DNA of 64,000 bases from Marsupella aquatica (GCA_973895155.1 OZ316895.1:3707659-3771658), one strand, 5' to 3'; counted from the first letter of the stretch, positions 1 to 38,134 are shown. Notes: generated from the letters alone by a model not told the origin. Made by a program: numbers and translations.

Positions 1-1402
1 CAAGTTGCCTCCTGGGACAACACCAAGAATGCCACAAATGTTTTGGTATTGCGTCACCCGATCTGCGGCTTCATTTGCATTTGGGGAACTTGGGCCGCAC
101 TCAACTGCACCGTTGATGACGTCTATTGTCACCCCGAATCCTGGAGGGCTTCTGCCAGCTGAAATGTCTGCCGATGAAGGGCTCCAACTTCCGTCCATCA
201 CTTCCTCACAAGATGGTTTCGGTGCTTGTACTGTGGTCCAAAACCATAGTGCTGACTTCCACGAAATCACAGGATCTGAGGCCACCAGACCTGGATTGCT
301 CAGAAGGTCCTGTCCTATTGAAGCCCCAAACGGTCCATAGTTGTAGTTCCTGCAATTCATATCCAATTCTCTGTTCAGCCTCAAAACATAGACACAATCA
401 TAGCTCGAGTTGCTCGAGTGACTCACTAACTACTCACAATGGCAGCAGCAAAACATAGACACAATCATAGCTCGATTTGCTCGAGTGACTTACTAACTAC
501 TCACAATGGCAGCATCAAAACATAGACACAATCGTAGCTCGAGTTGCTCGAGTGACTTACTAACTACTCACAATGGCACGCAAACGGGCAGTGAGCGATT
601 GAGGCTTAGAGCGAAATCTGTACCAGCTGATTTGCAATGGTCCGCGACCGTAATAGTCCTGGCCGGAAACGCAGGGATACTGCACGTTCATTGAGTCGCA
701 GTATGGGGCTTGTTGGACTTCCTCAATGTAGACCAATCCTGCAATGTCATTCAATTCAGGGAACGTCCGGTGCGGGTCATGTCAAAGATTTATTATGGCA
801 TCTGTACATTGTATTGGAGGTCAATCTGCTCCTGTCTAATCTCCTCGTCCACCACTGGCATTCCTAGGTAAGGATGTCGCTGTTCACTTCGACGAAGGTG
901 CATGATCTAGATTACACATGTGAAGCGGCAAGGCACAACAAGTTATGAAATACATTGAGGATTGAGTTTGGGATTTACCACTTGTCTCGTGGGTGACATG
1001 AGCAAAGAAGGCTGCGATGTCTTGTAGCTGTTGCGTGGAGCTGCCGGTGGTTCCAAAGGAACTATAACTGCCTACTGCTGAGATGAAGGAGTCGTACGTA
1101 TAAAAAGAGTTGCGGTTCGGAAAGATGGAATCGTAAACACTGGATGTAACGATGCTGCCCACGCCAGCAGAGGTTGGAGAGGACGGACACTGGGACACAC
1201 AATTTCCTCCACAGTAATCACTTGTGGTTCCACAGTACCCATATTTGCTGCAGCAGGACCCACTCAAGCACGGACCGCTTGTCCCGCAGTTGGGCTGCGC
1301 AAAAGTCAGGTCGACCAGGAGGGGCGACATTGTTAGGAGCAGACTAGTCAGCTGAAGCCATGTTCGGCGACCTTGAAAGGTGGCAGCCATTCTAAACCCC
1401 AT
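1..1402 (-). CDS. GH19 chitinase with N-terminal hevein (CBM18) domain; 3 exons, 3' end runs off the window
   Basis: Exon 1 (~1402 or 1390 to 979): signal peptide, CGTSGPCLSGSCCSKYGYCGTTSDYCGGNCVSQC, then IAAFFAHVTHETSG. Exon 2 (738-624): GLVYIEE...YYGRGPLQISW. Exon 3 (349 to <1): NYNYGPFG...SALWFWTT...INGAVECG. GT-AG introns keep the frame. Confidence 0.95.
382..578. repeat. Tandem repeat, 67-bp unit x ~3, inside chitinase intron 2
   Basis: caaaacatagacacaatcatagctcgagttgctcgagtgact...actcacaatggca starts at 382, 449 and 516. Confidence 0.9.
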
Positions 1403-3702
1403 CTCGATCAAAATGGTTGCGTCAATTCTGCCAGACCAAGTTGAAGAGCATTTGCAACTCTAGCCCTCGTTTGCCAACTAACTGAGTGAGTCTGGAGACA
1501 ACAAACATTCAGCGCAAAACAAAATTAACTGCCTCACAATTTGAGTCGCAAGCTCTAGAAATTCCTGCGAATTTCAGAACGTTCGATAAGAACATATCCA
1601 AGGAGGGTATTAATTACTGAGTATCGAAAGGTGACATCCCTGCCACTCTGCTCGCGAGAGGCGAGCCTATCGAAAGGTGAGATCCTACTATTCTCGCAAG
1701 GGACGAGCCTAACGACTGAACCTGAGCGTCCAGTTCAGCTTCGATATAGAAAAAGACGTGAGCCCTGTGAGATGAGACTATGCTCGCCTAACCACTGGAC
1801 CTAGTGACCAGTTCCATTTCTAGAACACCACGAGAGCCCACCAGCAGCACACTTCGTAGGTATTAGAAGGAAGCTAAAGACGAGCCTTCTAAATTCTGTG
1901 GCCTCATGCAAGAGCGTAATTGTCTCTCTGCCCAGTGGCCAACTTGGATTTGTAGTACCCTGTCCCCTCACTTTCTAAATTTTCGGAGGCTGTGCTGAAC
2001 ATTTGCGCAGAACCAGGCAATCAACGACTTTCAGACGACCGACTTTGGGACGACGCAATCTTTCAACCACGACGCGCGACTTTCAAAGGTCTTGAAACTG
2101 TCGCACAGTCGACGTCATGCATCAAGCATGAATCATTCATGGTCAACTCAATCATAAATGGGTTACCTATCGCAAATTGCATTCTGATTCTCGATTTCTA
2201 GACTTGTCGTCTAGATGATGCCCGGCCCAAATGTCAGAAGCACTGAGCTGTTCTTGTTCTTTGAATTTTTATTTCACAGTGCCCAAGGGGAAAAAACGCA
2301 CATGATCACAAAGGCAACGCAACCAAATGAATTGGAATTACATTTCAAACCTTTCCAAGAGAAGAGAAAAAGTGTCAAACAACCAACTGGCTTTGGTCAG
2401 TTGGCCAGAGGATGAACCTAGAACCGAGAGGTCCCAGGTTCAGTACTCCCTCCACACATAAGGGGTGTAGAGAGTATGTGTGTGTGGGTGGGGTGTAGTG
2501 GTGGGAGTATTGATTATCTCCTCAGCCCTGGTTGCCCACTTTGGGTTCTGGTTTAATTCTCTCTCCCTCCTGGTCTGGGTCCCTGTGGGATCCCTGGGTA
2601 TTGTCTCCTTGTGGCTCGCTGCCCTACATAGAAATGCATGCTCCAAAGCAGGACGTCTGCTTTCGGTTTTCAAAGCAAAAAAAAAAAAGTGTCAAACTTG
2701 ACAGGACGTCGTCTATCCTCTGTTGGATGGGCCTGCTTTCGATTTTCAAGGTAAAAAAAGAAAAAGTAAAGTGTCAAACGTGATAGGACTGTAAACTCCC
2801 GTGTAGACTAGCTAGTGTCCTGCCGAGTGTTAGTGAAAGTCCTACGAAACTGACGACATTGCGTAGGTCCATAATAACGATGAAGAAAAAGATCAGCTGG
2901 CTAGACCACAGTGACGGGACCCGGCCCCTTCCAACCTACTATGCGATCGTTATCGGCATATACTTCACTCCTTCCTCGATCAACTGCTCCACAAGTGCCT
3001 CGTAGGATGGATCATTCAGTGCCGGTCTTCCAGTAACGCGTAATGGTGATCGCTACCTACCTATGTCAGTAACTATCAGGCACGCGCTTTCGGTTTTATA
3101 CACATTCGTACCGAGTTGGTGACGTCTAGCATCTCATAGTTGGTGATCATAATTTGGAGAATAATGTTCATCGAAACTGCTTACCGCTCGCGATCGTGCA
3201 GCACTTGAAGTTGACTTTCCTGCCTGCCGAGCCAGAAAAACATTTCTCTCAAAGGTCAAAGCAATAATTTTACTGACACCGGCCGAGATTGATTTTCTGT
3301 CTACAGTTGTGTCACGATTATATGGACACCGTCTTTGGACTCAGACTGACAATATCTACTCGGAAAAGCTAACGACTGCGCTCACAAACCGAGAAGTTAG
3401 ATGCAGACTCTTGACTGATAGAGTCTGAAAGTGGACCCCCCGGTGGACCCACTACAGTCATACAATTAATAAAAGCTATGAGCATCTTACTTATATATAT
3501 ACCTAGGCTTCTAGAGCGAAGCCCCTAGACCCTAATTAGATGGCTCATCATGTGGATGAAAAAACTAATGTCTATGTGTGTCATGTCAAATGATAATCAT
3601 GACTACTTTTTGTTATGATTTCTATGAGCTCAATACCCGTGCGTTGCACAAAAGGTGACGTGTTGGTCAAGATATCATCGAGAACAAAAGAGGTTGTGTC
3701 GG

Positions 3703-16049: not shown

Positions 16050-16572
16050 TATGTGCAACGCACGGGTTATTGAACATGGCCACAACAATTGTATGGTTGA
16101 CATCACACAAAACATGCATCAACAACTACATCTCAAAGCTTATATATTTTTCCCTTGCCTTCACATATTTTCTTGCCTTGACATGTTTTTCTAATCTTTA
16201 CATATTCTGTCCTCAACATCTTTACTTTGTCTTCATATCTTGTTCTCACATTGACATCTTTATCTCATCACGACGTTTTTCTCACCCTTGACAGTTTTTT
16301 TCCTCAACATCTTTTTCTCTCCTAGCTTGACATCTTTTCTTCATCTCAACAGCTTTTTTCACCTTGACATCTTATCTTTTCTCATCTTGTCATCTTTTTC
16401 TCACCTTGATATCTTTATCTCACGACAATTACTTTTCCTCACCCTTAACATATTTTCTCTCCATGACATCTTTTTCTCATCTTTACATGTTTTCCAACCT
16501 TGCCTCTTTTCTCTCCTCGACATCTTTTCTTCACCTCGACATCTTTTGTGCAACGCACAGACATTGGGCTAG
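16050..16572 (+). mobile_element. Non-autonomous Helitron-like element (3' end)
   Basis: Body of gacatcttt-type repeats ending in the hairpin tgtgc-aac-gcaca (16547-16559) and CTAG|t at 16569-16572. A second copy of the hairpin lies at 16052-16066. Confidence 0.65.
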
Positions 16573-17455
16573 TTTTATATATGAATTATTATTTTTCTTG
16601 TATTTAACCTCATTTTGTACATGAACTACTCTTTTCACGATACTTAACCCGAGGCCCTTTTGCACTAGTTGTCTGCCATGGCAAGGTGGTATTAGCCACA
16701 CAACATGAGATATCAAGTTGGCCCAGGTTGGTTCTATTACACAGGATGGAGAGGAGGGATCGAGCTAAGTGTGAAAAAGGAGGGGGAAACCCTATCATTG
16801 GGCCTGCTTTTTCTAAACTGGAGGGCAAGGAGGAACTCATGGATAGGGCATGGATTTGTGCATGTTGAAGGTGTACTTTGGCTAGATTGTTTAACAATCT
16901 TTTGAAATAATATTTTGAGAAACTGCTTTAAATGCTAATTATTAACCATCCTACTTGGTCATGATTAGGAGGCAGTCTAAATGGCCCTGCCAAACACATA
17001 TCAGAGAATACAATAGACAGTTCAATCTAAAGCATGTTTATTATAAGTATTTAATGTGTTTGAGCAACCAGAACTTGGATGAGATCTTTGTTGAGTCAAA
17101 GGCACCATGCATGCACATGTGCAACATCCAAGCAACCAAGTGTTGAATGGTTTTGGTACATTGTTGTTGGTGCAACAATGTCTTAATTTTGGTGGAGTTG
17201 TTATCGCAAAAGTGATGTTATTAGGGTGGGCAAGGATGTGTCGTGACATATAGTATCGTAGCCATATAGTGTATCGAAAACATACAAGTCACTAGCAATG
17301 CATATGTGCAAGCTGCTAGCAACCAACATGCATAGAAAAAGTTCAATCACATTCACAAGTGCCAAGAAAAAGCAAGTGAGGTGGTATGTACGTAGTGGAG
17401 GTATAAACCTCTGTATCCCCCCCAGACCACAGCCAAAAGGAGGGCTGAAGAAAAG

Positions 17456-18613
17456 TCAGATAGCACGTGGAGCACAGGAAGGGCAAAACCATAACCCTTC
17501 TGGCACCTGGGTAAGTTCAGGCCGAAGGCAGAAAAGATGGTACCCTCCATTGCAATTGTCACACAGCAGCATCTGGTCAGCATCATCAATTCGCAAACAC
17601 ACTTTGCAAGGGTAGTCCACAGGTGGAATCCAAGTAGAAGTCACAATGGTGGGATCCAGGTTAGGCAGATGACAAGGGGCGCAATTCTTGGCATTGTCAG
17701 CAATTGTGCGCCCATCTGCCCCTTGTAACTCTAGCACTCCAGACGGTCGAATAGCTTTAACCCTGAGAATAGTACGACTGGTAGAGGTGTCCAGGGTGTC
17801 GTTAGCTTGCCGCTGCAAGTACACAAAATCTCCCACATCAAACTTCCTGACCTTGCGCTGAAAAGTGCCACCTCGTGTGTGTGCATAACGCAGTGTGTCC
17901 CTATGTTGTGCAATGGTCAAATTCTCCATGGCCATGGGCATAACCCTCCTGAATAGGGCAGCCCTCTCAGAGATCACATCAGACCAAGTCACAGCTGAAT
18001 CCAAGTCCACCACCTTAAGCATGTGAGCAGCAATAGCAGAAGGTGGAACTGGGTGACGACCAAACAACAAGAAGTAGGGAGAAAAGTTAGACAGTGATGC
18101 ATGTCTGGACATCCTATACCCCATGGCAATGTAGGGTAAGGCCAGGTCCCAATCCTCCTTGTTTTTGGTGAGGCAGATCTTCCGGAGACCCTTCTTGCAT
18201 GTCTGAACCATGCGCTCTGTCAAGCCATCTGCTTGTGGGTGATCTCGTGATGTCCGGCGATGATCAATGAGGGCCTGATCAAGCAGCTCCTGGAACTCTC
18301 CTCTAAACTCTGAGCCCTGGTCAGTGAGACATTCTGCACAAGCTCCAAAGCGGCTGAGAACTTGTTGCAGGAATGCCTGGCTGGTGCTACGGGAGGTCTT
18401 ATCCGGCAATGCCACAAGTTCTATCCACTTGGAGAAATGCTCTATCATGATCATGATGTAGAGATTACCCCGAGATGTGAGGGGTAATTCTCCAGCCAAA
18501 TCACATGACCAACGATAAAACATGCCCTGAATAGGGAGTGGATGAAGTGTGGGTTGCCGAGATGTGAAAGAAGTCCTCACCCTATCACATTGTTCACACC
18601 GGGCAATAACATC
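17456..18613 (-). CDS. Integrase core with C-terminal PHD finger; same frame as RT across a TGA at 18614-18616
   Basis: CEQC completes HHCC. Catalytic D-D-E in WSCDLAG / LTDQGSEF / ADGLTERM. C-terminal CKVC...MLLCDNCNGGYHLFCL...WFCPSC is a C4HC3 PHD finger (~17475-17610). Confidence 0.93.
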   Translation of the reverse strand, partial: DVIARCEQCDRVRTSFTSRQPTLHPLPIQGMFYRWSCDLAGELPLTSRGNLYIMIMIEHFSKWIELVALPDKTSRSTSQAFLQQVLSRFGACAECLTDQGSEFRGEFQELLDQALIDHRRTSRDHPQADGLTERMVQTCKKGLRKICLTKNKEDWDLALPYIAMGYRMSRHASLSNFSPYFLLFGRHPVPPSAIAAHMLKVVDLDSAVTWSDVISERAALFRRVMPMAMENLTIAQHRDTLRYAHTRGGTFQRKVRKFDVGDFVYLQRQANDTLDTSTSRTILRVKAIRPSGVLELQGADGRTIADNAKNCAPCHLPNLDPTIVTSTWIPPVDYPCKVCLRIDDADQMLLCDNCNGGYHLFCLRPELTQVPEGLWFCPSCAPRAI

Positions 18614-20719
18614 TCAAACCTGGCCATGCATGCCTCTCCAATGATAATGAGGGACCAAGAGGCTGTAAGTCCTCTTAACGCCAAAATGACCAAGCTCAGA
18701 ATGTACCTTACGGATAAGGCCAACCCTCTCATGAATGGGTGGAACCACCACTTCCCTGTCTAGCAAGCAGCGCACGAGATGATCTCCCTTCCACAAGTAG
18801 CGCTTGGACCTTTGCTGAATTCGGTCTCTCTGGGCAGCAGTAACATGTGTGGGGTACTCCCCATGCTGCAAAAATCTCAGAGTGTCGCTGTCCTCCCATA
18901 TGTCCACCACAGGTTGGTCAACAACATAGCATGGCAGCAAAGCAAGATAGGTCGATGCATGAAATGTAGGCAGGATGGAAACCTGGTCAAAATCTTCCCG
19001 TGCATCTGAGGAATCATCAGAGGTAATCAAAGGGCTGCGGGACATAGTGTCAGCATTCTGATGTGTCACACCAGGCCTATGAATTACCTCAAAATCATAC
19101 TCCTGGAGTATGAGCGCCCAACGAGCAAGCTTGCCAGTAAGCTTGTCGTTGGTCATCAACCACTTCAAGGGCTGGTGGTCGGTGTAGAGAACAAACCTGG
19201 TCCCATAGAGGTAGGGCCTATAATGTATGACAGCCCACACAATAGCAAGGCATTCACCCTCATAAGAAGAATAATGACTCTCTGCCTGATTGTTGCTCCT
19301 GGATGCATAGGCAATGACGTACTCTTTACCTTCCTCATCATGCTGGCCCAGAATGGCACCAATCCCAAGGGCACTCCAATCTGTGTGTAGCACAAAGACC
19401 TTGTTGAAATCAGGTCTTCTCAGCACCGGGTATTCTGAGAGCTTCTCCTTCAAAGTGGCAAATGCTGCCTCAGCATCTGTACTCCATGTCCAAGTCACAT
19501 TCTTTTTCAACAAAGCATACAATGGGTGTGCAATGGTACTGAAATCTTTGATGTAGATCCGGTAGTAATTGCACAACCCAATAAAACTCCTCAAAGTGTG
19601 AACATCGGTAGGAGTGGGCATTTCCAAGATGGATACCACCTTGGCCCAGTGAGCCATGGTTCCATTTGGAAGAATGCGATGCCCAAGATATACTACTGAT
19701 CTGACAACAAATTCACACTTCTTGGGGTGTATCTTTAGGTTCACCTTCTTAAGCCTCATGAATAGCTCCTCAAGGTCAAGTAGATGCTGGTCAAATCCTT
19801 TGCTGTGGACCAACACATCATCAATGTAGCATTTTAGAAACTCAGCACCTTGCAAAACCTGGTCCATGACTCTTTGAAAGAATATGGGCGCATTTTTCAA
19901 GCCAAATGGCATCACCAACCACTCCCATAGTTGGTTACTACCATGGAAAGCTGTTTTCTTGCGATCCTTTGCAAGCAGCAAAATCTGGTTGAAGCCTTGC
20001 CTTAGATCCACAAGAGTGAAGATGTTTGAGTCTCCAATGCTGTCAAATAGCTCCTCTGGCCGCGGCATGGGGTACCTGTCCTGGGGTGTGACCAGGTTCA
20101 ATGGCCTGTAGTCCCCACACATGCGTTTCTCTGTCCACAATCCACTGGAATCCTTCTTTGCTGGCATCACTGTAGCTGCCGCAAAATCTGATGTAGATGG
20201 CTGAATAAGACCAGCTTCATAAAGCTCTTGGCACCTCTCATCCACCAGCTGCCACTCATGCTTACTCAAACGGTGTCTCCGCCTAAAGATAGGTGTTTCA
20301 TCAGCCAACTCAATGGAGAACTGCATAGTCTTGCACTTACCCAAGTCCTTCATAGAGAAAGCAAACACATTCTCATGCTTGAGGAGCAAATTCAGCAGCT
20401 GGTCCTTCTGTCTTTTACTCAGGTGGTTGCCCATGATAAATGTGTAGTTGGCAACACTAGGAATAGGACCTGATGTACTCGTGCTTGAAGAGCCAGAAGT
20501 GCCAGCCTCTCCACTGTCCAAGCTGCTAGCATGCTGCTGATAAGGTGATGAGGCCTCTCCAAGGCCTGCTGTATCTGTTGCTCTGGTCTGATCCACACCA
20601 TGAAACTCAGAAATAATGTCAGCCACATTACAAGGGACCTCCTCCCCCCCAACACGGACTGAAGCGGTGAGTGTTGAATAGAGGTAAGTGCACCTGGTCT
20701 GGATGCCATGTAGCAGCAC
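18614..20719 (-). CDS. pol: Reverse transcriptase + RNase H + start of integrase zinc-binding domain
   Basis: KRMCGDYRPLN, DLRQGFNQI, MPFGLKNAP, YIDD, LRSFIGLCNYY, LHTDWS, YEGECLA, YTDHQPL, NADTMSR, HSELGHFG. Confidence 0.95.
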   Translation of the reverse strand: MLLHGIQTRCTYLYSTLTASVRVGGEEVPCNVADIISEFHGVDQTRATDTAGLGEASSPYQQHASSLDSGEAGTSGSSSTSTSGPIPSVANYTFIMGNHLSKRQKDQLLNLLLKHENVFAFSMKDLGKCKTMQFSIELADETPIFRRRHRLSKHEWQLVDERCQELYEAGLIQPSTSDFAAATVMPAKKDSSGLWTEKRMCGDYRPLNLVTPQDRYPMPRPEELFDSIGDSNIFTLVDLRQGFNQILLLAKDRKKTAFHGSNQLWEWLVMPFGLKNAPIFFQRVMDQVLQGAEFLKCYIDDVLVHSKGFDQHLLDLEELFMRLKKVNLKIHPKKCEFVVRSVVYLGHRILPNGTMAHWAKVVSILEMPTPTDVHTLRSFIGLCNYYRIYIKDFSTIAHPLYALLKKNVTWTWSTDAEAAFATLKEKLSEYPVLRRPDFNKVFVLHTDWSALGIGAILGQHDEEGKEYVIAYASRSNNQAESHYSSYEGECLAIVWAVIHYRPYLYGTRFVLYTDHQPLKWLMTNDKLTGKLARWALILQEYDFEVIHRPGVTHQNADTMSRSPLITSDDSSDAREDFDQVSILPTFHASTYLALLPCYVVDQPVVDIWEDSDTLRFLQHGEYPTHVTAAQRDRIQQRSKRYLWKGDHLVRCLLDREVVVPPIHERVGLIRKVHSELGHFGVKRTYSLLVPHYHWRGMHGQV

Positions 20720-20789
20720 TATGGAGGGGTAGGGCTAGAGCTCCTAATGCTGGAGGAATGTACATCTGAAAAAGGATGCAAGTGACCAG

Positions 20790-21730
20790 AAGCCAAGTGA
20801 GAGCATTGAGATCCATTACCCTGCCAAGTAAAGCATTCCTGGCCAGCCTGGTGATTTTGGTGTGACCTATAGTACCGGGTTGGAAGCCCATAGCCCGTTC
20901 TCTCTCCTCAGGACTAGGTTCATCCCATGTACCGGTAGAATGTCGATAAACCAGCCCAGGACCATTACCCTGAAAAGCATGTGCACCTGGAAAGGACACA
21001 AATGTAGGCCAAGCAGCACGGGGTTGTCCAATGGTATTAGCTGGATACCAAGATGCTGGCTCATGTTGTGTAACTGGTTGGCAAGAACTGTCAGGATCCA
21101 AAATCTGGTCCACTGTAAGGTTAGTGTCCCTGGATGTGTGGTGAAGAGCCATCTCCAGCAAGGAAGGTGGTGCAAGGTTAGTCCAAAAGTTACGAAGACG
21201 ATGTACATAAGAACCACAGTGCACTGCATCAATGAGAAGGGGTGGTCCCAAGTAGTGCTGGACCACACTAAAATCCTCTTTGACCTGTGGACGCTGGTCA
21301 AACTGAGATGGAGTATTCTCAATGATATAACCAACAGCAGGATAAAGGGATTGAGCCCAGGTGAGAATCTGAACCAATGCTGTGAAAAGACCAGAACGAG
21401 AATCATGTAGTCCAGCACCGTGACCAGCAGCTGAAAACCCTTGGCATTCCCAACCAGCTATGATCAAATCAAGGGAGCCAAGAAGGGTTAAGTGTCGGTG
21501 CTGGACAAGCTGGATATCTGGAGGAAAGAAAGAAAATGCAGACTTCCATGCACTGTGTGGAAACTGCTGAGGAAATCGCTCTGAAAATTCCAGCAGACGG
21601 GATTCAGCCACTTGCCTTGCACCTGGATCAATATCCACATAGATGTACTGCTTCACCACCATGCCAGACTGTAGGAGAGCTTCCAGGCCTGTAGAAATGC
21701 CACCAAAAAGCTCAAGCAATGTAAGGCCAT
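20790..21730 (-). CDS. C5 cytosine DNA methyltransferase domain (DNMT3-like motif pattern) inside pol
   Basis: Motif I LLELFGGISTG; II YIYVDID; IV DLIIAGWECQGFS (Cys codon 21444-21446); V [51 protein letters not shown]. Uninterrupted and in frame with the protease. Confidence 0.9.
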
Positions 21731-22079
21731 CTGAAGGAGGAGTCCATGTAACTGATGCGCTCAAGATTGGGGCTATTGGTTGTCCATGATGCTGCCCAAG
21801 GTCCTCAAATTTGTGCAATGCAGCCACCAAAGGTCCATGGGCTGCTTGGAGCCGTTGTACCACCTCTGGTTGATGATCCACGTTGCTGGAAAGTGCTGCT
21901 ACACGTGCAGCAGCATGTGCAGTAGCCACCTCATCCTCATCCTCCTCAATCCAATCCTGCAATGGGTGGTTGACATAGGTAGCTGTGTGCACTACTTTCA
22001 ACACACAGTGGTGAGCCATAGGTGTATGGGCACCATGCAAATCAAGTGGAATGTAGCCCAAGTGTGAGCCATCCGTATG

Positions 22080-22430
22080 CCAATCAACTCTGTAATATGC
22101 ATGCTCATGCCAGTTGTCAATGGTAAAACCTGGTGGGAACAAAGCCTCCTGGCCAATGAGCACATCATACGTAGTGGCATTGGTAACCAAACATCTGACT
22201 GGGAAATGCAATTCCTGATCTGTACCTCCATTAAAAGTGAGAGTGAGTAAAGTAGAACTCTCACCCAGCACATCCTCCACAGTGCCACTAGCAGTCCGAA
22301 TGTGCCACCTGGATTGTTGTAAATGATCAATCAACAGTCCCATCTTCTTGGCAAACTGAATGCCCAATATCACTGGTTGAGCACCTGTGTCTAGCATGAC
22401 CACCTGAGGAGTGTGACCATCCAACTTGAC
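22080..22430 (-). CDS. Retroviral-type aspartic protease domain
   Basis: VMLDTGAQPVILG active site (~22385), IRTASG flap and YDVLIGQEAL C-terminal motif, all in ORF 20628..22721. Confidence 0.9.
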
Positions 22431-22721
22431 TGCTGAATTCCTGTTGTCAACAATGGCAATGGTGGTGGAAACTAAAGTCCTGTCACTAGGCACCACTTTT
22501 GGCAAATGATGAGGTACCTTGTGAAGGGAGTTAGTGTCCATGGTCTTTCCACTCAACAACATAGCCAGGAAAGATGGAGCAGCATGACCAAAATCAAGTG
22601 TAGCTCTGGTCACACAATCAGCAGCAATCGGTACTGGGGCAGCCAAACCAATGGAAACATGTAAAGGAGAAGAAAAAGGTCCAGTATGTACATGAGATTG
22701 GACCTCCAAAACCGGTGTCAC

Positions 22722-24818
22722 AGGGGCTGATGAAGAATGCAGTGAGCCCTCTAGCGCTCTGATGACAGCTCTAGCATCCAGCTATAAATCATGGCAACTG
22801 AAAAGTGGAGTTGTAAGAATCCTTTGTGCCATACCGGAGGTGAAATGCTCAAGCAGCTCAGGAGAAACAACTCCCTGTGAAATGTCAGCAGCACTTGGTG
22901 GTGGAATGGATGTAGCTGCAGCTCCCTCCCCCCTCGCCAACAAGGTGCGCTCTTCAGCAAGTGTGAGTGGCTGAAAAGATTGGGGCATGACAGCCCGATC
23001 GCCCCTGGCTCTAGTCAGAGGACCGGCAGCAAGACCATCAGCCTGTACAATGCGGCGTGTGGGAGCAATACGGGAGGCAGCACTGGCCTGCTGGTAAGCA
23101 AAATAGGAAGGGCAGAATGAATCTGAAAATTCTGCTGTAAGGCCAGGCTGTGGAGCAGAGGACAGCACACACTCACCCATATGAGCATCAAATGGTAAGC
23201 CATAGAAAGAGCGGGGTAGAGGTGCTGAACTGTCAGCGGTGCCTGGGCCAGGGATGGGTTGCACGTGACCAGCCGGTTGAGAAGGACCAGTAGAGGCAGT
23301 GGACTTGCCTTTGATGTTGGCAAGTTGGGCACGTAAGGACTCAACCTCATGAGTCAGAGACTGGAGTTGAGTTGCCTGTGCGTTGTGAGCCTCCTTCTAA
23401 GCTGGTTGCTTCTGTGGCTGCTTGGGCAATTTGTTAGCACCGGGTGCTTTGCCACTGGAAGGAGGAGCAGTGGATGCAGTAGGAGCCCTCCTAGCTGGTG
23501 GGGGAGTGGAAACAAGAGCAGGATGAGTGGCCTGCTGTCGTAGCTGCTTCCTCTCGGGGAATTTGGCAAAACAGACTGCCTCCAAGTGGCCCACTTTCCC
23601 GCAAAAATCACAAGATAGGTCCTCAGCAACAATATCACATTCATTAGCCTTGTGATTAGGGTTACCACAGTAGTTGCAAGATGGCAGCATGAAAGCAGCA
23701 TGTGCTGGCTTGGTCTTGGAACCATACTATGGCACACGGGGAGGAGTGGCCAGTGTAGGGGCAGCAGCCTGGTACCTGGATCGCGGTGGACGTGCAATAC
23801 TGGCCTCATAATGTGCATGGGCCAACTCAAGTTTCTCAACAGTGTCATAGACATTGAGCAAGGTGTAGCTGTCTCCAAACTCTGAGAATACTTGTTGCAA
23901 CACTTGCGAATGGAGAGCTGGTGTGCCCTCCAATGCACGAAGATAGCGATGAGCAACTTCCAGGTCAGTGATGCTCTGGGTGTCCTCCTTCAGCTTGAGA
24001 AGCCGACGATACATCATCTTCAATGTTTCATCGCGCTGCCTCACAAAGGTGGCCAACTGCATGATTTTGTCAGCACTCTTGATTGGGAATTCCAATTCAA
24101 GAACCTGGAAAAACTCAGCCACTGGATCAACAAAGGCAGGGGAATCAATGGTGGGAGAAATGCCTGATGTAGCCTGTGCCAAGACAGTGGGAGTAACAGG
24201 CACAGTGGTAGGAACTGGAGTAGGAGGGGAAGTGGCAGGAGCAGCAGCATGGGTTGCAATGGCATTTTGTAAGGCCAATTGTGAAGCTGCCACAATTGCA
24301 CTGGCATAGATAGGGTTAGGCAACTGTGTGACAGCAAGCAGCCATTGAGAGTGTTGCTCATACACATCTAAAGCCTCATGGTGCACATACCTGGCTAGCT
24401 GCTTAAATGCAAACGCATTTGTGAAATTGCTGCCGTACTTCAACTCCAATTCGTAAACGACAGTGTAGAAAATGGATTTGAACTCACGTAAAGAGATAGT
24501 GCCTGGCCGCCCGCTGAAGCGCTCAATGCGGCCAGATGAGTGGCTGGCATCCATGCTGTATGTCGGTGAAGCAGGAACAACCACTGATGCAGAAGGGGTA
24601 AATGGCAATGAAGTGATAGCAGGCTTCGGAGTAGTGGTGAAGCGACCGCCAAATGTAGCAGGAGGATTGCGTGGTGTGGGTGCTGCTGCTGTCTGCGGAT
24701 GTCGTCGAAATTGACGAGACTCCAATGAAATTGGCACCAATGGTCGTGGATCACTCCGTAAGTGGTACCGGGGTGTCGGTGGCGATGAGCTGCTACGACT
24801 CGGCTCCTCTGCTGACAT
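22722..24818 (-). pseudogene. gag: Gag with two CCHC zinc knuckles; single frame interrupted by TAG at 23727, 23397 and 22782
   Basis: IERFSGRPG...LREFKS capsid-like start, FVRQRDETLKMMYRRL MHR-like motif, and knuckles CNYCGNPNHKANEC and CDFCGKVGHLEAVC. ORFs starting at 24818, 23690, 23264 and 22721 are all in one frame. Confidence 0.85.
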
Positions 24819-27099
24819 GCTGCATGCTCACCCGGGGTGCCTAAATCGAAAATGTCCCCCTTCTCGGTGGTACGAGGTGCTGAGGGGAAAGAAACTGACA
24901 AGAAAAATGGGTGCTAGCCCCAAGGCTAGGAAATAAAACCCACAAAGGAAACAACCGTGCGAGGCAGAAATGTGTAGACTGGCCCTGCCGAAAATATACT
25001 CACAAAAAAAATGAACAGAAAGAAAACAAGAGGAAACGGCGAAAAGGGGCCTCCGTTATGTGTATAGATAGGGGTCTGTGTATACACATAAAGGGTACCG
25101 GTCGGTACCCAATGTGGATACATCGTCGGGCTCCCTGGAAGAAAAAGAGGCCGGAAAGAAGCAGGTGTACGCACACTCGGGAGGCACGGTACCCTATGCT
25201 GCAGGGCGAGGCGAGGCGAGGCTGAGGCGAGGTGACAACTTAATGGCTCGGGCCCTGCATAGGGCTTCGTGCCCCACTATGAGCTCCCCCTATCCCCTTT
25301 TGGGCCTTGTGCCCTGGCAGCGAGTGACTCCCGAGAGAGGAGTCGCGAGTACTCCCCCCCGTCTTTAAAGCTGAATTAAGGGCTTCGTGCCCTGCAGGAG
25401 AACTCCCGTGTGAGGGAGTTCGAATTGAACTCCCCTCCTCCTTGCACACTCGCTCCCCCTCCTTCCTGCTTTGGCTTGTACTTGGCTCCCCCTGCCCCTG
25501 CTTTAATGTTGCTTAGGGCCTCGTGCCCTCTCCTGCGCTCCTGCCTCCTGCCCTGATTCCCCCTATCCCTGCTTTAATTACTCCATAGGGCCTCGTGCCC
25601 TCCGTCCCCCCTCGCTTGCTTGTGGCAGGGCGACGAAAAGGAAGGGAGTCGATCCCCCTCCCCTTGTGGCAGAAAAGAAAGGAAGAAAAGGGGCGTTGCG
25701 AGGGGGAGAAACGGGCGCGCGGCCCTATGTACTTGGGACGCGCGACGGCCGGCAAACACCGAAAGAAAAATGGCGCAAATAAGCACCGAAAAATGCCGAA
25801 AGTGGTGGATGAGTCGTGCAGTCAGCAGTCGGCAGCCATAGTCGAGTTGCGGCCGACAAGAAATATCCGGGCCCCTTGTTATGTGTATACACTTAAGTAT
25901 ACACATAACATCACAATAAACCCATAACTTTTAACTCGTCACTCCGATGTCCGTCGAAGAAATTGCAATGGCTTCACCAGAAATTGTCAAAATCGTCACG
26001 AGCAATCTTCTTCCCGTCACCGCTAACTCGAGAGTTCTTCTTGAATAAAAGGCGTGATAGAAACAAACGTACTGAAATCGAATCGAAAACTGGCGAGATG
26101 CCAAGATCGGCCGGGAGCATCTAACGAATCACTGTGTGAATTCCGTGTACGGAACCGACGAGCAGCCTCTGAAAAACTCTGTCTCACAGCGATTCAAGAA
26201 GAACTGAAGAACGGCAACGAAAAACATGCCCTAAGTAGGACCGGGTCCAGGCGTCACACTAACAAACCCCTTTTGCTTCAAGAACAGCCCAGACTCGCTA
26301 CAAGAACATGACACTAACTCAAGTAGTACATTAGCCCTAACCATACCTAGCGGGCATGCGAGGGACATGCCGATGTGCACAAGCGGCACTGTCCCTCGGC
26401 ATGACAGATGCAAGGAGGTGCAAGACAGGCGACAACGGCTGTTGGGTCCAAGCAAGGCCATGCAATACTTTCTTTCCTTTTCTCACTGCCCCTTCTCTCC
26501 TCCTGCCCATGTGAGGGTGGTGGGCAAGGTGCAAGGGAAGGCATATTGGCATATAGTGCATGCAAACAGGTGGATGGATTCTGGGTTTACTTCCCCTTCC
26601 CCGGCCACAATCCTTCTAGGGGAGTGTATTTCATCACATCACATGTACCATAATATTTGTATATATTGACTTATTAATACATGGTATAATTTATTGACGT
26701 TCCACCAGACAACAAAAACTTTTGACAGGATTGCATATTCTAGTAGTTGATAAGCACTCCACATCAGCATGTGCTTGGGCCCACTCCTTACAATGTAGGA
26801 CTGGTAGATGCCATATCCAAATGGGCCACAGTTCTTGTGTAGCCCGCTGCAACACCTTTCCACTCATTGTGTGGTTCAGATTTAATCTCATCACATACTA
26901 AACAAATACTATGGGCCCAAATGTCAAGCCATGCATACATTTGGTATCCAAAACGCAATGACCCCAGCAGGGTTGCCTCTTAGAATATACTCTCAACTTT
27001 TTTGGGGGGTGGCAGGTGGGGCAGGCCAGGAAAGAAAGATTGACACCTTGAAGGAGGCTTGCTTGTTATTTGCCATATGTTCATTCATAAGAATCAAGC

Positions 27100-31068: not shown

Positions 31069-32536
31069 AAAAAATTAGTTCTAGGCGGGTCAGTTCAAAA
31101 ACTGAACTTGTTTACTTGCGGAATAGTAGGTGGTGACGGGGCTCACATAGGGGACCCAAGGCTATTCCCATTTTCTAAATCTGAGGTCTCATAGGTGACC
31201 CCCTAGTTTGACCTTATATTCCAGGATGACCCCCAAAACTTTGCTCCAAAATTCTTGGAGTGGATCACAAAACGGGCTTTGGTCTGAAGGGGGGGCAAAT
31301 GGAACACAACCCTCGAGGCCCGGTTTCAAGCACCCCTGCCCTTTCCCCCGCCGCCACCCTCACGGCCACATCGGCAAACAAGAGACCCGAGCCAGACCCA
31401 TCAAGGGTTTCGTGTCACTCCTAACCAGAGGTACGAAGAACCGGTCCGGTAAATACGGTACGCCCCTTCCGTACGTCGTACCTCAGTCCACGCTACCGTC
31501 GTACCCTACACCCACTATTAGCAAAGCAATCACTCCGTAATCTCTCAAAATCTCCATATACTGTAATGAGGCGGCCTCATAAATCCCAATCAAGGACAGA
31601 AAACACCGCTAATGTGCCTCTTAATGGAAGTTTAACCTCTAACGACGACGCCAGTTCGGGACTGATTGGGGCCCCACCCCAAAGGGATTTTGAGTCCGCC
31701 ATGTCCATAAGTAGGAAGGATATATGGAGAGACACGGAGACGGAGAACCAGAGAGTTCTACACTTCTACAGGAGTACACCGCCAGATTGATTCATGGTGG
31801 TGTCGATTGTGATGCTGTGGTGCGGAATGACAAGAAACAGCAGCAGCAGAGAACTCCTGGTCGTAGAATAAATGTCGAGGCCATCGATGAAGGCGAGAGT
31901 ATTGAATCATTCGTGCAGGTGAACAGACTCGCGGCGTCAGGTTGAGCGACTGGAGAGAGTTTGAAGCCGGAGTTTGTCCGATTTGGTGGAGTGGTGGGTC
32001 GTGTGATCTCGACATGCCAAGCAGCGAGGAACTCTGGGTGTCATAATTTGTTGAGTTCATCTTAGAATATTTTTGAGAGTTCTGGGCTGTGGCCGAGCAG
32101 GAGTTGTTTTGATTTGGACCGGCGAGAGGAATCTCGACGCACGAAAGAGCGGAGACAAGAGAATGATTGAGAAGCTGGAATTGGAGAAGAGCCTGGATCG
32201 GAGAGTTTCAGTCGAATGTTGTAGACGATCCTCGAAGTGCTGAAGAGCGAGAGGTAAAGGGGAAGGCGTTTCGGTGGTTTGGAGATTTTCTCGGCTGATG
32301 AGTTGTCTTTGCGTGGTGTCGTGCGGCGGACGGGAAGGAGAGTAGCGTATAGAAGAATTGTACAGGTAGAATCGTTGAATCGTCGTCGCTAGGGAGGATC
32401 ATCGTTGAAGTGGGTGCCTTTTGGTTAGGTTATAAGGTTTAATTAGGTTAGGTTGAGAGTCTATCCGAGCGAGTGGGCTGTGGAAAATTGTAGTTGTGTG
32501 AAGATTTGTGGAGAGAGACACAGAGAGAGTGAAGAG

Positions 32537-35500
32537 ATGGAGCGGGGGCCAGGGGGGAGGAGTAGAGGAGGGGCGGGAGCTATGGGGGCATTGGGGGGCG
32601 AGGGAGGAGGAAGGAGTGTGGCGGAAGTCCAATTGTTTAGGGAGGATGTGGTACAGAGCCTTGCGCAGCCGTCAATGATCGGAGTAGTGTCGAAAGTGGG
32701 AGGGGATTCAGACAGCGAAGATGAAAGTTCCGACAGCGAGGAATCGGAGGAGGAAGACGAGGAAGAGATTCCGGACGGAGCGGCAAGGATTTGCTGGATT
32801 AACACGGATGAATCCACGGAGAAGGTAGGGGACTTGAAGGTCATTGATCGCGCGTTTCTGCACGGAGACATTGTGGCGAAAGCGAGTGATCCTCTTGGGC
32901 ATACCGGAACCGTGGTCAATGTAGAGATGATGGTTGATTTGGAGCTGCCGAATGGAGTAATTATGAAGGACGTGAATAGCAAGAGGTTGCGCCGTGTGAG
33001 GGCTTTCGCTTTAGGAGATTATGTAATTTACGACATGTGGCTCGGACGTGTAGAGGAAGTTTTAGATAATGTGACGGTATTGTTTGATGATGGGGCCAAG
33101 TGTAAGGTCATGAGAGCCGATACTGAACGGCTTAGTTCCCTGCACGATACTGTGATGGACGATTCGGGCTGCCCCTATTTTCAGGGCCAGAGAGTCCGCG
33201 TCGATTCTGCTTCTGTTTTTAAGAGTGCTAAGTGGCTCAAAGGAAGCTGGAAGGCCAGTCGCACGGAGGGCACCGTCGTAGAGCTAGAGGCTGGTACTGT
33301 GGTTGTCTATTGGATAACGGCAGGAAATGTGTTGAATGGAAGTTCGCAGCCATCAGCTGTCCCCAATGACGAGGTCGAAGCGTGTAAATTACTACCTATG
33401 ATCTATTTTTCTCACACCAATTGGCAGCTTGGAGATCGTTCCTTACCGCCCACCAGAATGCGCCCCATAACTGTGGTCCCGACAATGGAGGGCGCTCATG
33501 TGGATGGAATTCCTTCAGACGGTGATGCAGAATCTTCGTTAGACAGCAGCAGCAATGTGGCACGTAGTTCGGACTCTGTGGATTTAAATTCCTGCGGAAC
33601 CGGAGAGAGCTGTAGCAAGCCCGGGGGAGAAGCTTGGACATTGCATCGGCGGAAGGGAAAGCAGCAGCGAAGACCAGCCAAACGAGAGAAGAAACTGCAG
33701 AAAAAGGACAAACCAGTAGAATATGCTGTATTGGTAGTGAACACGAGAACTACAGTAGACGTGTTGTGGCAAGACGGAAGGATCTCTCATGGGGTCGATG
33801 CTTGTTCACTCGTTCCGGTGGATCATCTGGGTGATCATGATTTTTGGCCCGAACAGTACGTCATGGAAAGAGGCGCAGACGGGGAGGGATTAGATGACGT
33901 TCCTAGACGGGTAGGTGTTGTGAAGGCAGTGGATGCGAAGCAAAGAACTGCGTCTGTTCGCTGGCTGAAGATTGTAAATCGGCCTGAGGAACCTCGGGAG
34001 TTTGAATCAGAGGAAATTGTGAGTGTCTATGAGTTGGTTGAACATCCAGACTACTCCTACTGCTTGGGTGACGTGGTCATCCGATTAATTTCTGCGCTGA
34101 GCTCTGCAGAGGGCAATCCTCGTTTGGCAGACTCCGAAATTGCAGTCAAGTCAGAAGTTGATCAGGAAGAAAACGATCGTGAGGTTACTGGACGAAAGAA
34201 AAAAAAGAATAACGTGCAACGCAGCACCCCGAAAGTCGAGCCTTCCTCGCAAGACTTATCCTGGGTTGGTGTCATTATAGGGCTCCAAGATGGGGATATC
34301 GAAGTCGCATGGGCGGATGGAATGGTGTCAAAGGTCGGTCTCCTCTCATCTATAATTGATGCCTGATTTGGTCTAGAATTGCAAGCATCATCAAATTGGA
34401 TTCTGGCTGATATCTCTCTCTCTCTCGTGGCCTGACAATTTTTTCCAACTTGGAGAACAGATTGGAAACTGATTACGACCACGGTTGATCCTAGTGAATG
34501 TTCCTTTCATATTTGCGTCTATAGAATACCTTTGGGAAAATTATGAAGTCTTTTTACACATCTCTATCTGTGATTTTTTCCTTGCAAGTATCTAGAAACC
34601 TGTAATAACGCTTAACCAAGGGACTGATTCTAAATCGAAAATTATCTGTTACTGTCCATAAATTGTTCTTTAGCGCGTGAAGCTTCCCTTTCCCACCGGT
34701 TTCAAAACATAAAGTTTCTACTGTTAGTCTCCGTTTGAAATTATCCATTACTGATGGGTTGTTGACAAGAACTTCAGTCCTGGTTTCGTTAGCATCGTAT
34801 GCTGTGAGTGTAGCATGGTATATTGTAGTGAACTGGATGTTAATCTAAGTCTTGTGCGGTAAGGCAAGTGGTTGTTTCTCACTTACTTTGAATTATCCAG
34901 GTTGGGCCTCAAGCGATATGGGTTGTCAATCGGGATCTTGGAGATTCTTCGTCAGCACACACCAGCGATCTCGAAGATGCCGAAGACATAGAGGATGCGG
35001 CCAGCTGGGAGACAGTGGTATCTGACGATGACATCAGCAGGGGAGTTCAGGTATAAAGTCTTTTAGTATTATGAGCTCATAGATGAGAGCGAAGGAAGAA
35101 TGCCTCGGATGAACTTCTATATTTTCTTTCTGTTGATGCATCTTTTCTTAACTATCAGAGAATGAATTGCTACTCTAAACTTACCTTCCCGCAGTACCGT
35201 CTGCTCTTCAGATCCTATCTTAATTTTACCGTGCTTTTCCCACTAGGAAGCAAGTTTATCGTCAACATGATGGTTTGCCTCCAGAGACCTCGATTCTTTC
35301 GTCGTTATCCTCCAGGGTTTACAATCCCATGGACTAAAATTAATTGGCATCTGTGACGTGTAATCTGGGCAGGGTGAGTCAGATCTGCAGGAGGAAAGGT
35401 TTGGATTGGACCACGTAAAAGATGTACGCCAAGGAAGCGAGGAAGACATGGGAGCTGATTCACGTTCAGATTCTAGCGTGTACCATGATGAGGACAAAGT

Positions 35501-38134
35501 AACAGAGGAACATCGTGCTCCAAATTTTGGGGGCCCTTTCAAGCTTCCTCTTGTAGCGTTGGGACTAGTTTCTCGACTTGCCACTGGATTGTTGGGTCTG
35601 AGGGGTGTCAGAAAGGATGCAGATTCGGTGGGTGAAGAAGATATGGCTTCAAGCTCACAATGTCGGACACATTCAGAGGAGCTTGAAAGACGTCGTGATG
35701 GAGATGCAGCTTCTGGAGAGCAAACGCCACTTTCTCCAGATAAATGGCGTCTTGCGGAGGACGGGGATTTGAGCAAAAATGATACTCTTGAAAGGCTCGC
35801 TGAAGCTGTGTTTAGCTCAATGGCCTCAGAGGAACAAGAACAGGATGTAACGCCATCAAGCACACCAACCGATGCTGAGTCTGAGGAACGAGGAGAGAGT
35901 CCTCTTGATCCCTTGAAGATATTGGATGACGAGGAGAAGGAGCATTTTGTAGATACCTTCAGTACTCTGAAGGGTTCACCCGAACCGGAGATGGGAAATA
36001 TGGCCGGTGCTATAAAGCACTTTGACTGTGTGAAAGATGCATCCGATCATCACTACATTGGTGAAACCGCCCAGGTAACTAAGATATTCTACTCTGAACG
36101 AGATTCCGTTATTGTTTGTCGTTGCCAGTCTGGGATGATTACAACAGTAATTTTCAGCTCTAGTTGAATTCCGGGCACTTTTCTCTTGATTGGTAAAAGA
36201 AATTCAATGAGAGGCCGCAGAAGTAGAATTGATATCGCCTTGCCTTTTGTTGTGTAATATTCGATTTTTTTACGTTGTCATGGTAATCTTGCAGCCAACA
36301 AATCGTCGGAAATGGGTAAAAAAGATTCAGCAGGAGTGGAGCATATTGGAAAGGAACCTTCCTGGTAAGCTTCCTGAATGACTGCAGACTACCCTTGTGG
36401 CTTTTTGTCAATTTCAAATGCACTTGGCTTGTGTCCCAATGTAACGATCGAGCAGAGGAGTAATTAGTGTGTCCCTCTTGAGATCATCATGAGTTTGTTT
36501 TTGTAAGACTTGTATGACTTTGCATCAAAACCATTGCAGATATCGCACGTTTTTTCACTCTGCAGTCGTCCATAAGCTATCCCTGCTAAGAAGGTTGTGC
36601 GTGTTGATCGGTTGGGGGAGTGCAGTTGATGATCACTAAGATCTTTTACGGAACAAAGATAATCATGCATCTCATTGTTGACGATGACGTTCTTTCACTC
36701 TCCTTTTCTTCAGATACCATATATGTTCGAGTTTACGAGGACCGCATGGATCTGCTGCGAGCTGTTATTGTTGGAGCAAAGCAAACACCATATCACGATG
36801 GGCTCTTCGTTTTCGACCTCTACATGCCTCCGGAATATCCTAGTGCCCCGCCAGTAAGTGCAGCACTGATGTTTCTCAGTTCTTTCTGAAGAGGCATTAA
36901 CTCAATAGTAAGGGGAACAAGGTAATAACTATTCTGTTTTGACCACCTTCTAATTCCCACGTATGGATATTCTATGCAGGTAGCACATTACCATTCAGGC
37001 GGACTGCGCTTAAATCCAAACCTTTATGAGAATGGCAGGGTCTGTCTGAGCCTCTTAAATACATGGACTGGAAAGGGGTCGGAGATATGGCATCCCTCAA
37101 CATCGAGCATACTACAAGTACTGGTTTCCATCCAGGGTTTGGTTCTCAATGAAAGGCCATATTTTAATGAAGCAGGGTACGATAAGCAAGTTGGCACAGG
37201 AGAAGGAGAGAAGAATTCTTTGGTATATAATGAGAACTCGTTCTTACTTTCATGCAAGTCGATGCTCTATCTTCTAAGACGGCCACCAATGGTACGTGCT
37301 AATTTTTGCCTGGTGCAACCTTGACACGTGATCTACTCATTTTTGCTGCAATATTTTCAATCACGCGTACCTTATTTTTGTTTCGCTCTTTTTTATCAAC
37401 TCATTTTCGCTAGAGAGTGGGGTTTGACGTTGGGACGGAACGGGAAGATAAAGTTGAAACTGCGGGCAGATGTATATTCGTAACACTATCGTAAGCAATC
37501 TGAATGAACAACAAGATCAGGGCAGTGTAAAGAGAGTGAACCTGGTACAATTTATCAAAGGAGCAAGAAGATAGAAGACGACCAAAATAGTTCAAGAGTT
37601 TCCCAAAACTCAAACTTCAGAACTGGCCTTGAGGATTATAGTTTGCGATTTCGCGTAGGGAAGGTCGTTCTCAGGCATATGAGCTTTTCTCCACTTACTC
37701 TATCGGGCAAGGACACAAAAGACTTATAGATTCTATTTGTTGAAAAAACTAAATAAAGACGAACGTCTTTCTTTCCATGCGTATTGAAAGATGGCTAATA
37801 ACATTAGAACAAGGAGATGCAGCAGCATTCGTAAGGAAAGAGTTGTCGGAGGTAATTTTTGACGTGGAACCATAATAATTTGTCTTTTGTGTTGCTGCAG
37901 CATTTTGAATATTTCATTAGGGATCATTTTCAAAAGCGTGGCCAAAATGTACTACTGGCATGTAAGGCTTATCTAGCCGGAGCTGCGGTGGGGTCCTTGA
38001 CGGAGTCAGATTTGTCGAGCGTTGAGGACAGGAAATATGATGATCAGAGTTCTGCAGGTTTTAAACTAATGCTGAACAAACTTGTTCCAAAGCTTGCTGC
38101 TGCTTTTGAGAAGGTGGGTTCAAAAACTCAATGA
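32537..38134 (+). CDS. UBC23: Large E2 ubiquitin-conjugating enzyme, UBC23/PHO2 (UBE2O) family, multi-exon
   Basis: Long first exon with VIDRAFLHGDIV and DHDFWPEQYV. UBC exons: WVKKIQQEWSILERNLP, IYVRVYEDRMDLLRAVIVG...TPYHDGLF, active site NPNLYENGRVCLSLL. Last exon HFEYFIRDHF...KTQ ends in TGA at 38132-38134. Confidence 0.92.

What the first reader, a model, noticed from the sequence alone, without database searches (positions are those of the whole stretch)
17456..24818. Ty3/Gypsy retrotransposon encoding its own C5 DNA methyltransferase between protease and RT, in a land plant
Seen: a ~310-aa domain with C5-MTase motifs I, II, IV, V, VI, VIII, IX and X in canonical order. It is in frame downstream of the DTG protease and upstream of RT, so it is part of the polyprotein rather than a nested insertion. 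Known: DNMT-carrying retrotransposons were described in Symbiodinium and the charophyte Klebsormidium (de Mendoza et al. 2018). I do not recall them as an established feature of embryophyte genomes, and the flanking genes here (HD-ZIP IV, GT61, UBC23, SDN5) are land-plant type. Inference: the enzyme is packaged in the particle and methylates new cDNA or the element's own loci, for self-regulation or to mimic host DNA.
Basis: partly seen in the sequence, partly recalled or inferred. Interest (0 to 1): 0.92.

Follow-up and report, generated by a model that had tools for sequence, protein, structure and literature searches.

The report
Liverwort retrotransposon carrying DNMT3-like methyltransferase
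This is a broken copy of an abundant jumping gene in what is likely a liverwort; its protein includes a DNMT3-like cytosine-methyltransferase domain that likely methylates the element's new DNA copies, a kind we found in print only for algae, and its oddly split end repeats suggest an unusual way of inserting.

Summary
The DNMT3-like domain between protease and RT is real (PF00145 E=3e-6; predicted fold closest to DNMT3A/B). It is not in frame with RT in this copy, which has four internal stops and a frameshift; relatives in Calypogeia and elsewhere run PR-DNMT-RT in one ORF. The host gene UBC23 groups with Marchantia. The family is high-copy, its catalytic Cys and Glu are invariant (172 of 172), and the domain is under purifying selection. 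Relatives occur in Sphagnum and Closterium (DNMT before RT) and in chlorophytes (DNMT after RNase H). The element is longer than reported (17239-26406): TG..CA ends, 4-bp target duplication, PHD-tipped integrase, no LTR pair. Peat-moss-type relatives have split repeats A-body-B-nn-A-B and a Tf1-like self-priming duplex that covaries with the window copy. The internal CA-nn-TG junction suggests that integrase opens an end-joined cDNA (inferred). Closest known: KnitGypsy-Dnmt3 of Klebsormidium (2018). Eight literature searches found no bryophyte report. This scan already found the family, split repeats and self-priming in moss genomes. Enzyme activity is untested.

The parts
17239..26406 (-). 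Whole inserted element, A-body-B form, TG..CA termini
   Evidence: Sequence; read depth rises about a thousand-fold over most of this span in run X1; termini match those of peat-moss-type loci
26407..26410 (-). 4-bp target-site duplication, 5' side
   Evidence: identical to 17235-17238
17235..17238 (-). 4-bp target-site duplication, 3' side
26047..26406 (-). Repeat A1 (about 360 bp; 3' end inferred from the priming duplex); holds a TATA-aligned site and the predicted transcription start
   Evidence: alignment to A of 8 loci
26192..26205 (-). Predicted 5' end of the RNA and self-primer (14-nt arm)
   Evidence: 14-bp perfect stem with 26033-26046; aligns with the arm about 27-30 nt below the TATA box of the loci
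26033..26046 (-). Primer-binding-site-like arm just 3' of A1
   Evidence: two paired changes against the peat-moss-type duplex
25050..25925 (-). GC-rich, CpG-retaining leader segment between two similar hairpins; low depth, so rare or divergent among copies
23727..24827 (-). Gag ORF (relatives start at the ATG at 24554); ends in an internal stop
23397..23726 (-). Zinc-knuckle region, same frame, internal stop
   Evidence: PF00098 E=9.9e-5
22140..22430 (-). Aspartyl protease (DTG)
   Evidence: PF13975 E=5.3e-7
20751..21761 (-). DNMT3-like C5 cytosine methyltransferase domain, open in this copy
20655..20683 (-). Frame change between DNMT and RT in this copy
   Evidence: contigs of other copies differ here by a small indel
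19658..20332 (-). Reverse transcriptase
   Evidence: PF00078 E=7e-29
19091..19489 (-). RNase H
   Evidence: PF17917 E=1.1e-38
17900..18739 (-). Integrase (H2C2 plus rve core), internal stop at 18614
   Evidence: PF17921, PF00665
17459..17623 (-). C-terminal PHD finger, predicted reader of unmethylated H3K4
   Evidence: PF00628 E=5.2e-12
17417..17423 (-). Polypurine tract (G7)
   Evidence: a G-rich tract precedes 19 of 19 B1 repeats listed
17239..17416 (-). Repeat B (178 bp), single copy here
   Evidence: starts at the PPT and ends like B of the loci; joint 26407>17239 in run X2 shows B-A junctions in other copies
32447..37324 (+). Host UBC23-like gene exons, used to place the host

Best explanation
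This is a dead copy of a high-copy Ty3/Gypsy-type retrotransposon, in a likely liverwort host, whose family polyprotein (Gag-protease-DNMT-RT-RNase H-integrase-PHD) carries a conserved DNMT3-like domain that likely methylates the element's own new cDNA. Shown: domain order, single ORF in relatives, invariant catalytic residues, purifying selection, TG..CA ends with 4-bp duplications, split repeats. Inferred life cycle: RNA starts inside A and its first ~14 nt pair with the site just after A1 to prime reverse transcription without tRNA; the PPT primes the plus strand at B; the product would be [B-nn-A]-body-[B-nn-A]; its two ends would be joined (A|B junction) and integrase would cut at the internal CA-nn-TG site, giving A-body-B-nn-A-B or, with both sites cut, A-body-B as in this window. 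The packaged DNMT would mark the cDNA before or at insertion, and the PHD finger would steer integration to chromatin lacking H3K4 methylation. The family is likely the land-plant branch of the lineage that includes KnitGypsy-Dnmt3.
For: Pfam, PDB and fold results. In-frame relatives; 13 of 32 scorable loci keep DNMT and RT in one frame. Cys 172/172, Glu 172/172, motif VIII Arg 170 and 167 of 172. dN/dS about 0.09 and 0.07 against L001 and L002. DNMT bins are covered like RT bins in runs X1, X2, X6. 18 of 18 B1|A2 junctions (13 independent loci) have a 2-nt spacer; 4 of 5 complete A..BAB copies have a perfect 4-bp TSD and one has 3 of 4; B2 starts where B1 starts but without the G tract. Duplex: 5 of 8 loci beat shuffles (p<=0.006) and the window has a 14-bp stem. 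PHD lacks the cage Trp in 61 of 62 (rule from PMC5415848 passages). DNMT and RT trees both separate the two domain orders.
Against: No activity data. KnitGypsy-Dnmt3 gave no methylation in yeast. Motif IV Pro is Glu here and in 102 of 172. CpG depletion (o/e 0.16-0.36 from PR to INT) is equally explained by host methylation. 19 of 32 loci have DNMT and RT in different frames, and run X2 showed no frame-keeping indel at the junction (X1 27% of depth, X6 96%, X5 100%); read as decay, but a frameshifted subfamily is not excluded. 3 of 8 loci did not beat shuffles on Watson-Crick pairs alone. The circle model also predicts an A-B-A-body-B form, seen in 0 of 9 independent loci with A1. No named Klebsormidium sequence was retrieved, so common descent is untested. 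dS is near saturation.
Confidence: 0.62

Rival explanations
1. The DNMT fold is kept for a non-catalytic job (binding or shielding cDNA, oligomerising Pol), or acts on the element's RNA.
For: Pro to Glu in motif IV in most members; no activity of the Klebsormidium domain in yeast.
Against: Catalytic Cys, Glu and both motif VIII Arg are near-invariant across sequences only 35-40% alike; the fold is closer to DNMT3 (Z 29) than to DNMT2 (Z 21-22).
Confidence: 0.15
2. The DNMT acts in trans or after insertion, on chromosomal copies or target chromatin, with the PHD finger playing the part of the ADD domain of animal DNMT3, so the element dampens itself or rival elements.
For: A writer and an H3K4me0-type reader lie on one polyprotein; the ADD parallel is recalled.
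Against: The protease likely separates the domains; the DNMT sits at two different places in Pol; no targeting data.
Confidence: 0.15
3. The split repeats arise by end-to-end template jumps of RT on a linear cDNA, not through a circle, and the A-body-B form arises later by B1 x B2 recombination.
For: A2|B2 junctions are ragged with short AT microhomology; the second permutation is not seen; retroviral integrases use linear DNA (PMC11054761 passages).
Against: Integrase would still have to cut at an internal CA-nn-TG site; L038 keeps about 30 nt of B tail plus the 2-nt spacer upstream of A1. This rival concerns only the integration step.
Confidence: 0.35
4. One-off chimera, nested insertion, contaminant or misassembly.
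For: This copy is frameshifted at the DNMT-RT junction.
Against: Same order in Calypogeia, Sphagnum-type and Closterium sequences; a contig spans the junction in X6 and single-copy flanks match X1 and X2 contigs without differences; one TSD encloses the whole element.
Confidence: 0.01

Closest known systems
KnitGypsy-Dnmt3 of Klebsormidium nitens (de Mendoza et al. 2018, PMC5890265; passages, sections 10-11, part 2 of the text, peer-review file passages)
   Same: Intronless DNMT3-like domain in the Pol ORF of a Gypsy element, DIRS-like repeat layout, purifying selection.
   Different: Here in bryophytes at far higher apparent copy number. PHD finger, TSD, self-priming and the second domain order are not mentioned in the text searched ('PHD' 0 hits); Fig. 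4c and the supplementary figures could not be seen.
SymbioDIRS-Dnmt3 and SymbioLINE-Dnmt (same paper); EpiLTRs (bioRxiv 10.64898/2026.05.21.726589, passages)
   Same: Retroelement-borne C5 methyltransferases; SymbioDIRS-Dnmt3 methylates CG de novo in yeast.
   Different: Other element classes or a DNMT4-related domain; described as independent captures.
Tf1/Sushi and Tcn1 self-priming Ty3/Gypsy elements (PMC6317226, passages)
   Same: No tRNA PBS; predicted self-priming; Tcn1 occurs in mosses and club-mosses.
   Different: They have two ordinary LTRs and a chromodomain; 'PHD' and 'methyltransferase' do not occur in that survey's text.
Gypsy-7a_cRei and REM1 of Chlamydomonas (PMC9940879 section 13; REM1 paper not held, recalled)
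   Same: Green-lineage Gypsy elements with a PHD finger proposed to guide insertion.
   Different: No DNMT listed; paired LTRs.
PAT-like/Ngaro tyrosine-recombinase retrotransposons (layout recalled)
   Same: A1..B1A2B2 split direct repeats.
   Different: This family has a DDE integrase and 4-bp TSDs; no recombinase was found.

Membership tests
C5 cytosine methyltransferase, DNMT3 type | PF00145 hit and motifs I-X in unpermuted order | tested here: met
C5 cytosine methyltransferase, DNMT3 type | Catalytic Cys (IV), Glu (VI), Arg-x-Arg (VIII) | tested here: met
   172/172, 172/172, 170 and 167/172
C5 cytosine methyltransferase, DNMT3 type | Pro-Cys dipeptide in motif IV | tested here: not met
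   Glu-Cys in the window and 102 of 172; Pro-Cys in 60 of 172
C5 cytosine methyltransferase, DNMT3 type | Closest to DNMT3 by sequence and fold | tested here: met
   (no tree with host DNMT3 genes was built)
C5 cytosine methyltransferase, DNMT3 type | Methylates DNA | not testable with these tools
   needs an assay
Ty3/Gypsy LTR retrotransposon | Order PR-RT-RH-INT with DDE integrase | tested here: met
Ty3/Gypsy LTR retrotransposon | TG..CA ends, 4-5 bp TSD, PPT | tested here: met
Ty3/Gypsy LTR retrotransposon | Two full LTRs flanking the body | tested here: not met
   none in the window; split repeats in relatives
Ty3/Gypsy LTR retrotransposon | tRNA primer-binding site | tested here: not met
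   no TGG within 40 nt after A1 in 6 of 6 loci; self-complementary duplex instead
Chromovirus | Chromodomain on integrase | tested here: not met
   PHD, no chromodomain
KnitGypsy-Dnmt3 lineage | Intronless DNMT3-like domain in the Pol ORF, under purifying selection | tested here: met
KnitGypsy-Dnmt3 lineage | DIRS-type repeat structure with Gypsy domains | tested here: met
   in the window species only as the B-A joint in X2
KnitGypsy-Dnmt3 lineage | Same clade and same DNMT position as the K. nitens elements | not testable with these tools
   no named K. nitens protein among the 30 proteins looked up by name; figure not visible
Tyrosine-recombinase (DIRS/PAT/Ngaro) retrotransposon | Tyrosine recombinase gene | tested here: not met
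   no hit in 7 main and 16 other ORFs of 100 aa or more in and at the element

The most novel reading that the evidence does not exclude
A green-lineage-wide class of self-primed, DNMT3- and PHD-armed retrotransposons whose DDE integrase inserts an end-joined (circular) cDNA by cutting an attachment site inside the LTR, the circle-junction route rejected for retroviruses, and which delivers pre-methylated copies into bryophyte genomes by the hundreds to thousands.
Probability: 0.35. Interest if true: 0.88.

Novelty: new variant of a known kind. Interest (0 to 1): 0.64.

Why it matters
[quoted passage not shown] Counts of DNMT3 genes in bryophytes may be inflated by these copies, and LTR finders would likely miss them because they have no LTR pair. 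A high-copy family in culturable plants makes the open question of why retroelements carry DNMTs testable by sequencing particle cDNA for 5mC. If integrase does open an internal junction, it is a natural exception to the linear-cDNA rule of retroelement integration.

Tried and rejected
No whole genome is held, so copies in the host could not be counted, aligned or dated directly, and CpG loss could not be compared with DNMT-free Gypsy families. No RNA holder listed. The termini in the host species rest on one read-laying output. In one search my PR and RT queries were out of frame, so their identities there are not used; one search used the right frames. A standard LTR pair was sought and not found. 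A tRNA PBS was not found. A hidden recombinase or antisense chromodomain ORF was not found. CpG depletion was rejected as evidence of self-methylation. The atlas search gave only generic PF00145 clusters, one mostly Streptophyta. No tree with host DNMT3/DRM or outgroup RTs could be built, so the direction of the DNMT move is unrooted. No fern, lycophyte, hornwort or seed-plant name appeared among named DNMT hits, but most hits are unnamed, so this is no evidence of absence. The REM1 paper is not held. No complex prediction was run.

Full report
Observation. On the minus strand, ORF 20628..22781 holds an aspartyl protease and a C5-methyltransferase domain (PF00145 E=3e-6, above cut-off); ORF 18614..20734 holds RT, RNase H and H2C2; ORF 17456..18613 holds the integrase core and a PHD finger. 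The best PDB sequence hits are DNMT3A, with motif-by-motif alignment. A model built on 39 sequences has pLDDT 93 and matches DNMT3A/B first in Foldseek (E=1.3e-18, TM 0.71) and VIA-align (DNMT3B Z 29.2; M.MpeI 25.1; HhaI 23.1; DNMT2 21-22; DNMT1 19). Gag to DNMT share one frame with three internal stops, the frame changes near 20655-20683, and a fourth stop splits the integrase.

Family. The DNMT search gave 21 hits among 7940 candidates, including Calypogeia fissa, Sphagnum magellanicum and S. troendelagicum. P0048 (C. fissa, 78% identical in the DNMT), P0043 and P0003 cross the DNMT-RT junction in one ORF. P0350 and P0355 are complete PR-DNMT-RT-RH-INT ORFs without a PHD hit. Thirty-nine metagenome loci (of 98 pattern matches) mostly show the same order; where scorable they are 63-88% identical to the S. 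magellanicum protein against 40-65% to the window, so I call them peat-moss-type. They are decayed: 13 of 32 keep DNMT and RT in one frame. In runs that hold the window's flanks without differences, depth over the body is about 1e5 against about 1e2 for single-copy contigs (X1) and 3e4-9e4 against 44-96 (X2); in X6 it is about 250 against 2-3. The tool warns that this is no copy number, so I read it as hundreds to over a thousand copies, with the DNMT covered like RT. A frame-keeping indel at the junction is seen in 27% of depth in X1, 96% in X6, 100% in X5 and not in X2.

Host. The UBC23 exon is 72% identical to Marchantia over 295 shared columns (Sphagnum 56-64%, fern 49%, seed plants 43-46%) and groups with it at 98/96 in a 17-row tree. 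A liverwort is likely; only one liverwort and no hornwort-named row were in the tree.

Constraint. Among 172 DNMT domains the catalytic Cys and Glu are invariant and the motif VIII arginines stand in 170 and 167; the Pro before Cys is Glu in 102 and Pro in 60. Window against L001 and L002: dN 0.18 and 0.21, dS 2.1 and 2.9, near saturation. Among decayed loci dN/dS is 0.44 for DNMT and 0.43 for RT. CpG o/e is 0.16-0.36 from protease to integrase against 0.6-0.9 in host exons, which does not tell who methylated it.

Range and two architectures. 256 representatives at 50% identity match at E<=1e-30. Most long ones read RT-RH-DNMT-INT-PHD; named ones are the chlorophytes Tetradesmus deserticola and Hariotina reticulata. 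A smaller group reads PR-DNMT-(RT) and includes Closterium sp. NIES-68. In a 172-row FastTree all 19 pre-RT rows fall in one 31-row group with none of the 106 post-RH rows (0.95). A 38-row IQ-TREE subset (19 of the 106 post-RH rows) gives the split SH-aLRT 98. The RT tree agrees: 7 pre-RT rows together, 0.997. So the domain changed place once; direction and root are unknown. Vertical descent from a streptophyte ancestor is inferred, not tested.

Ends. The element runs 17239-26406 with TG..CA ends and a 4-bp duplication and has no LTR pair. Self-comparison of the loci shows A1-body-B1-A2-B2, with A about 315 and B about 175 bp. A G tract precedes 19 of 19 B1. All 18 B1|A2 junctions (13 independent) are CA-nn-TG or a transition variant of it. 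Four of five complete copies have a perfect 4-bp TSD and one has 3 of 4. B2 begins at the same base as B1, directly after the ragged end of A2. The window has A and one B; the joint 26407>17239 in X2 shows B-A junctions in other copies there. L004, L020 and L037/L038 also end after one B. No tRNA PBS follows A1 (0 of 6). Instead a stretch about 27-30 nt below a TATA box in A pairs with the sequence just after A1: longest Watson-Crick runs of 15, 11, 16, 13 and 13 nt beat shuffles in 5 of 8 loci; the other three (7, 8, 7) do not, though G-U pairs extend them. The window has a 14-bp perfect stem at the aligned place, with two paired changes against the moss form.

Mechanism. Inferred: self-primed minus strand as in Tf1-type elements (PMC6317226 passages); PPT-primed plus strand; cDNA [B-nn-A]-body-[B-nn-A]; ends joined; integrase cuts an internal CA-nn-TG. 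One cut gives A-body-B-nn-A-B, the only form with the 3' A needed for strand transfer; two cuts, or later B x B recombination, give the window's form. Against a plain circle: the other permutation is seen in 0 of 9 independent loci with A1, and retroviral integrases use linear DNA (PMC11054761 passages). An end-to-end RT jump is the main rival. The PHD is closest to WSTF, CHD4, ATXR5, KDM5 PHD1 and BAZ2B and lacks Trp at the position I take as the methyl-K4 cage in 61 of 62 (rule in PMC5415848 passages; the position itself is recalled), so it is predicted to read unmethylated H3K4. cDNA methylation is inferred from position in Pol and conservation.

Prior art. De Mendoza 2018 describes KnitGypsy-Dnmt3 with DIRS-like repeats, purifying selection and no activity in yeast. 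A 2025 paper and a 2026 preprint refer to 'streptophyte' elements, the first citing that paper (passages). Their trees and supplements, Fig. 4c of the 2018 paper and its reference 3 (earlier DNMT-RT links) were not seen and may include bryophyte or chlorophyte cases. PHD-bearing Gypsy elements are known in Chlamydomonas. Passages of PMC11244446 and PMC9033089 held nothing relevant. Eight searches found no report in bryophytes; the library lacks most subscription papers. This scan noted the family in moss genomes before: DNMT with split repeats (e1-7304403), PHD (e1-7225970) and self-priming with permuted repeats (e1-7226033). I reached the repeat structure and the duplex before seeing the matching notes; agreement among them is not independent evidence.

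Verdict. A real feature and a dead copy of a known kind, newly placed in a likely liverwort, with a second domain order in chlorophytes and an unusual, testable replication model. New variant of a known kind; interest 0.64.

Noticed in passing
window 25050-25925: GC-rich leader segment with five 17-nt repeats, bounded by two hairpins with the same stem; depth about 40-fold below the element body, so a rare insert or a divergent sub-family leader.
   Followed up: partly
window 16140-16573 and 43500-44580: A dispersed ~19-bp tandem-repeat family; the first patch is high-copy and ends sharply at 16573 in three runs.
   Followed up: no
L038:695-731: About 30 nt of B tail plus the 2-nt spacer lie upstream of A1 in an internally deleted copy, as expected if the precursor has B before A.
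   Followed up: partly
L031: Two family members nested in opposite orientation with a further duplicated insert.
   Followed up: no
P0031 residues 1184-1223: A G-patch domain between DNMT and integrase in one chlorophyte-type element.
   Followed up: no
P0022 C-terminal ~150 aa: The tail after the PHD has a segment that by eye resembles a degenerate adenine-methyltransferase module; no Pfam hit at 1e-3; resemblance recalled, untested.
   Followed up: no
P0206, P0334, P0358: Pre-RT-type ORFs that end after the DNMT without RT, so some lineages may split Gag-PR-DNMT from Pol.
   Followed up: no
window 884-1459 (-), 46053-46379 (+), 48216-50328 (-): Host class I chitinase exon, homeodomain exon and GT61 gene.
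   Followed up: no
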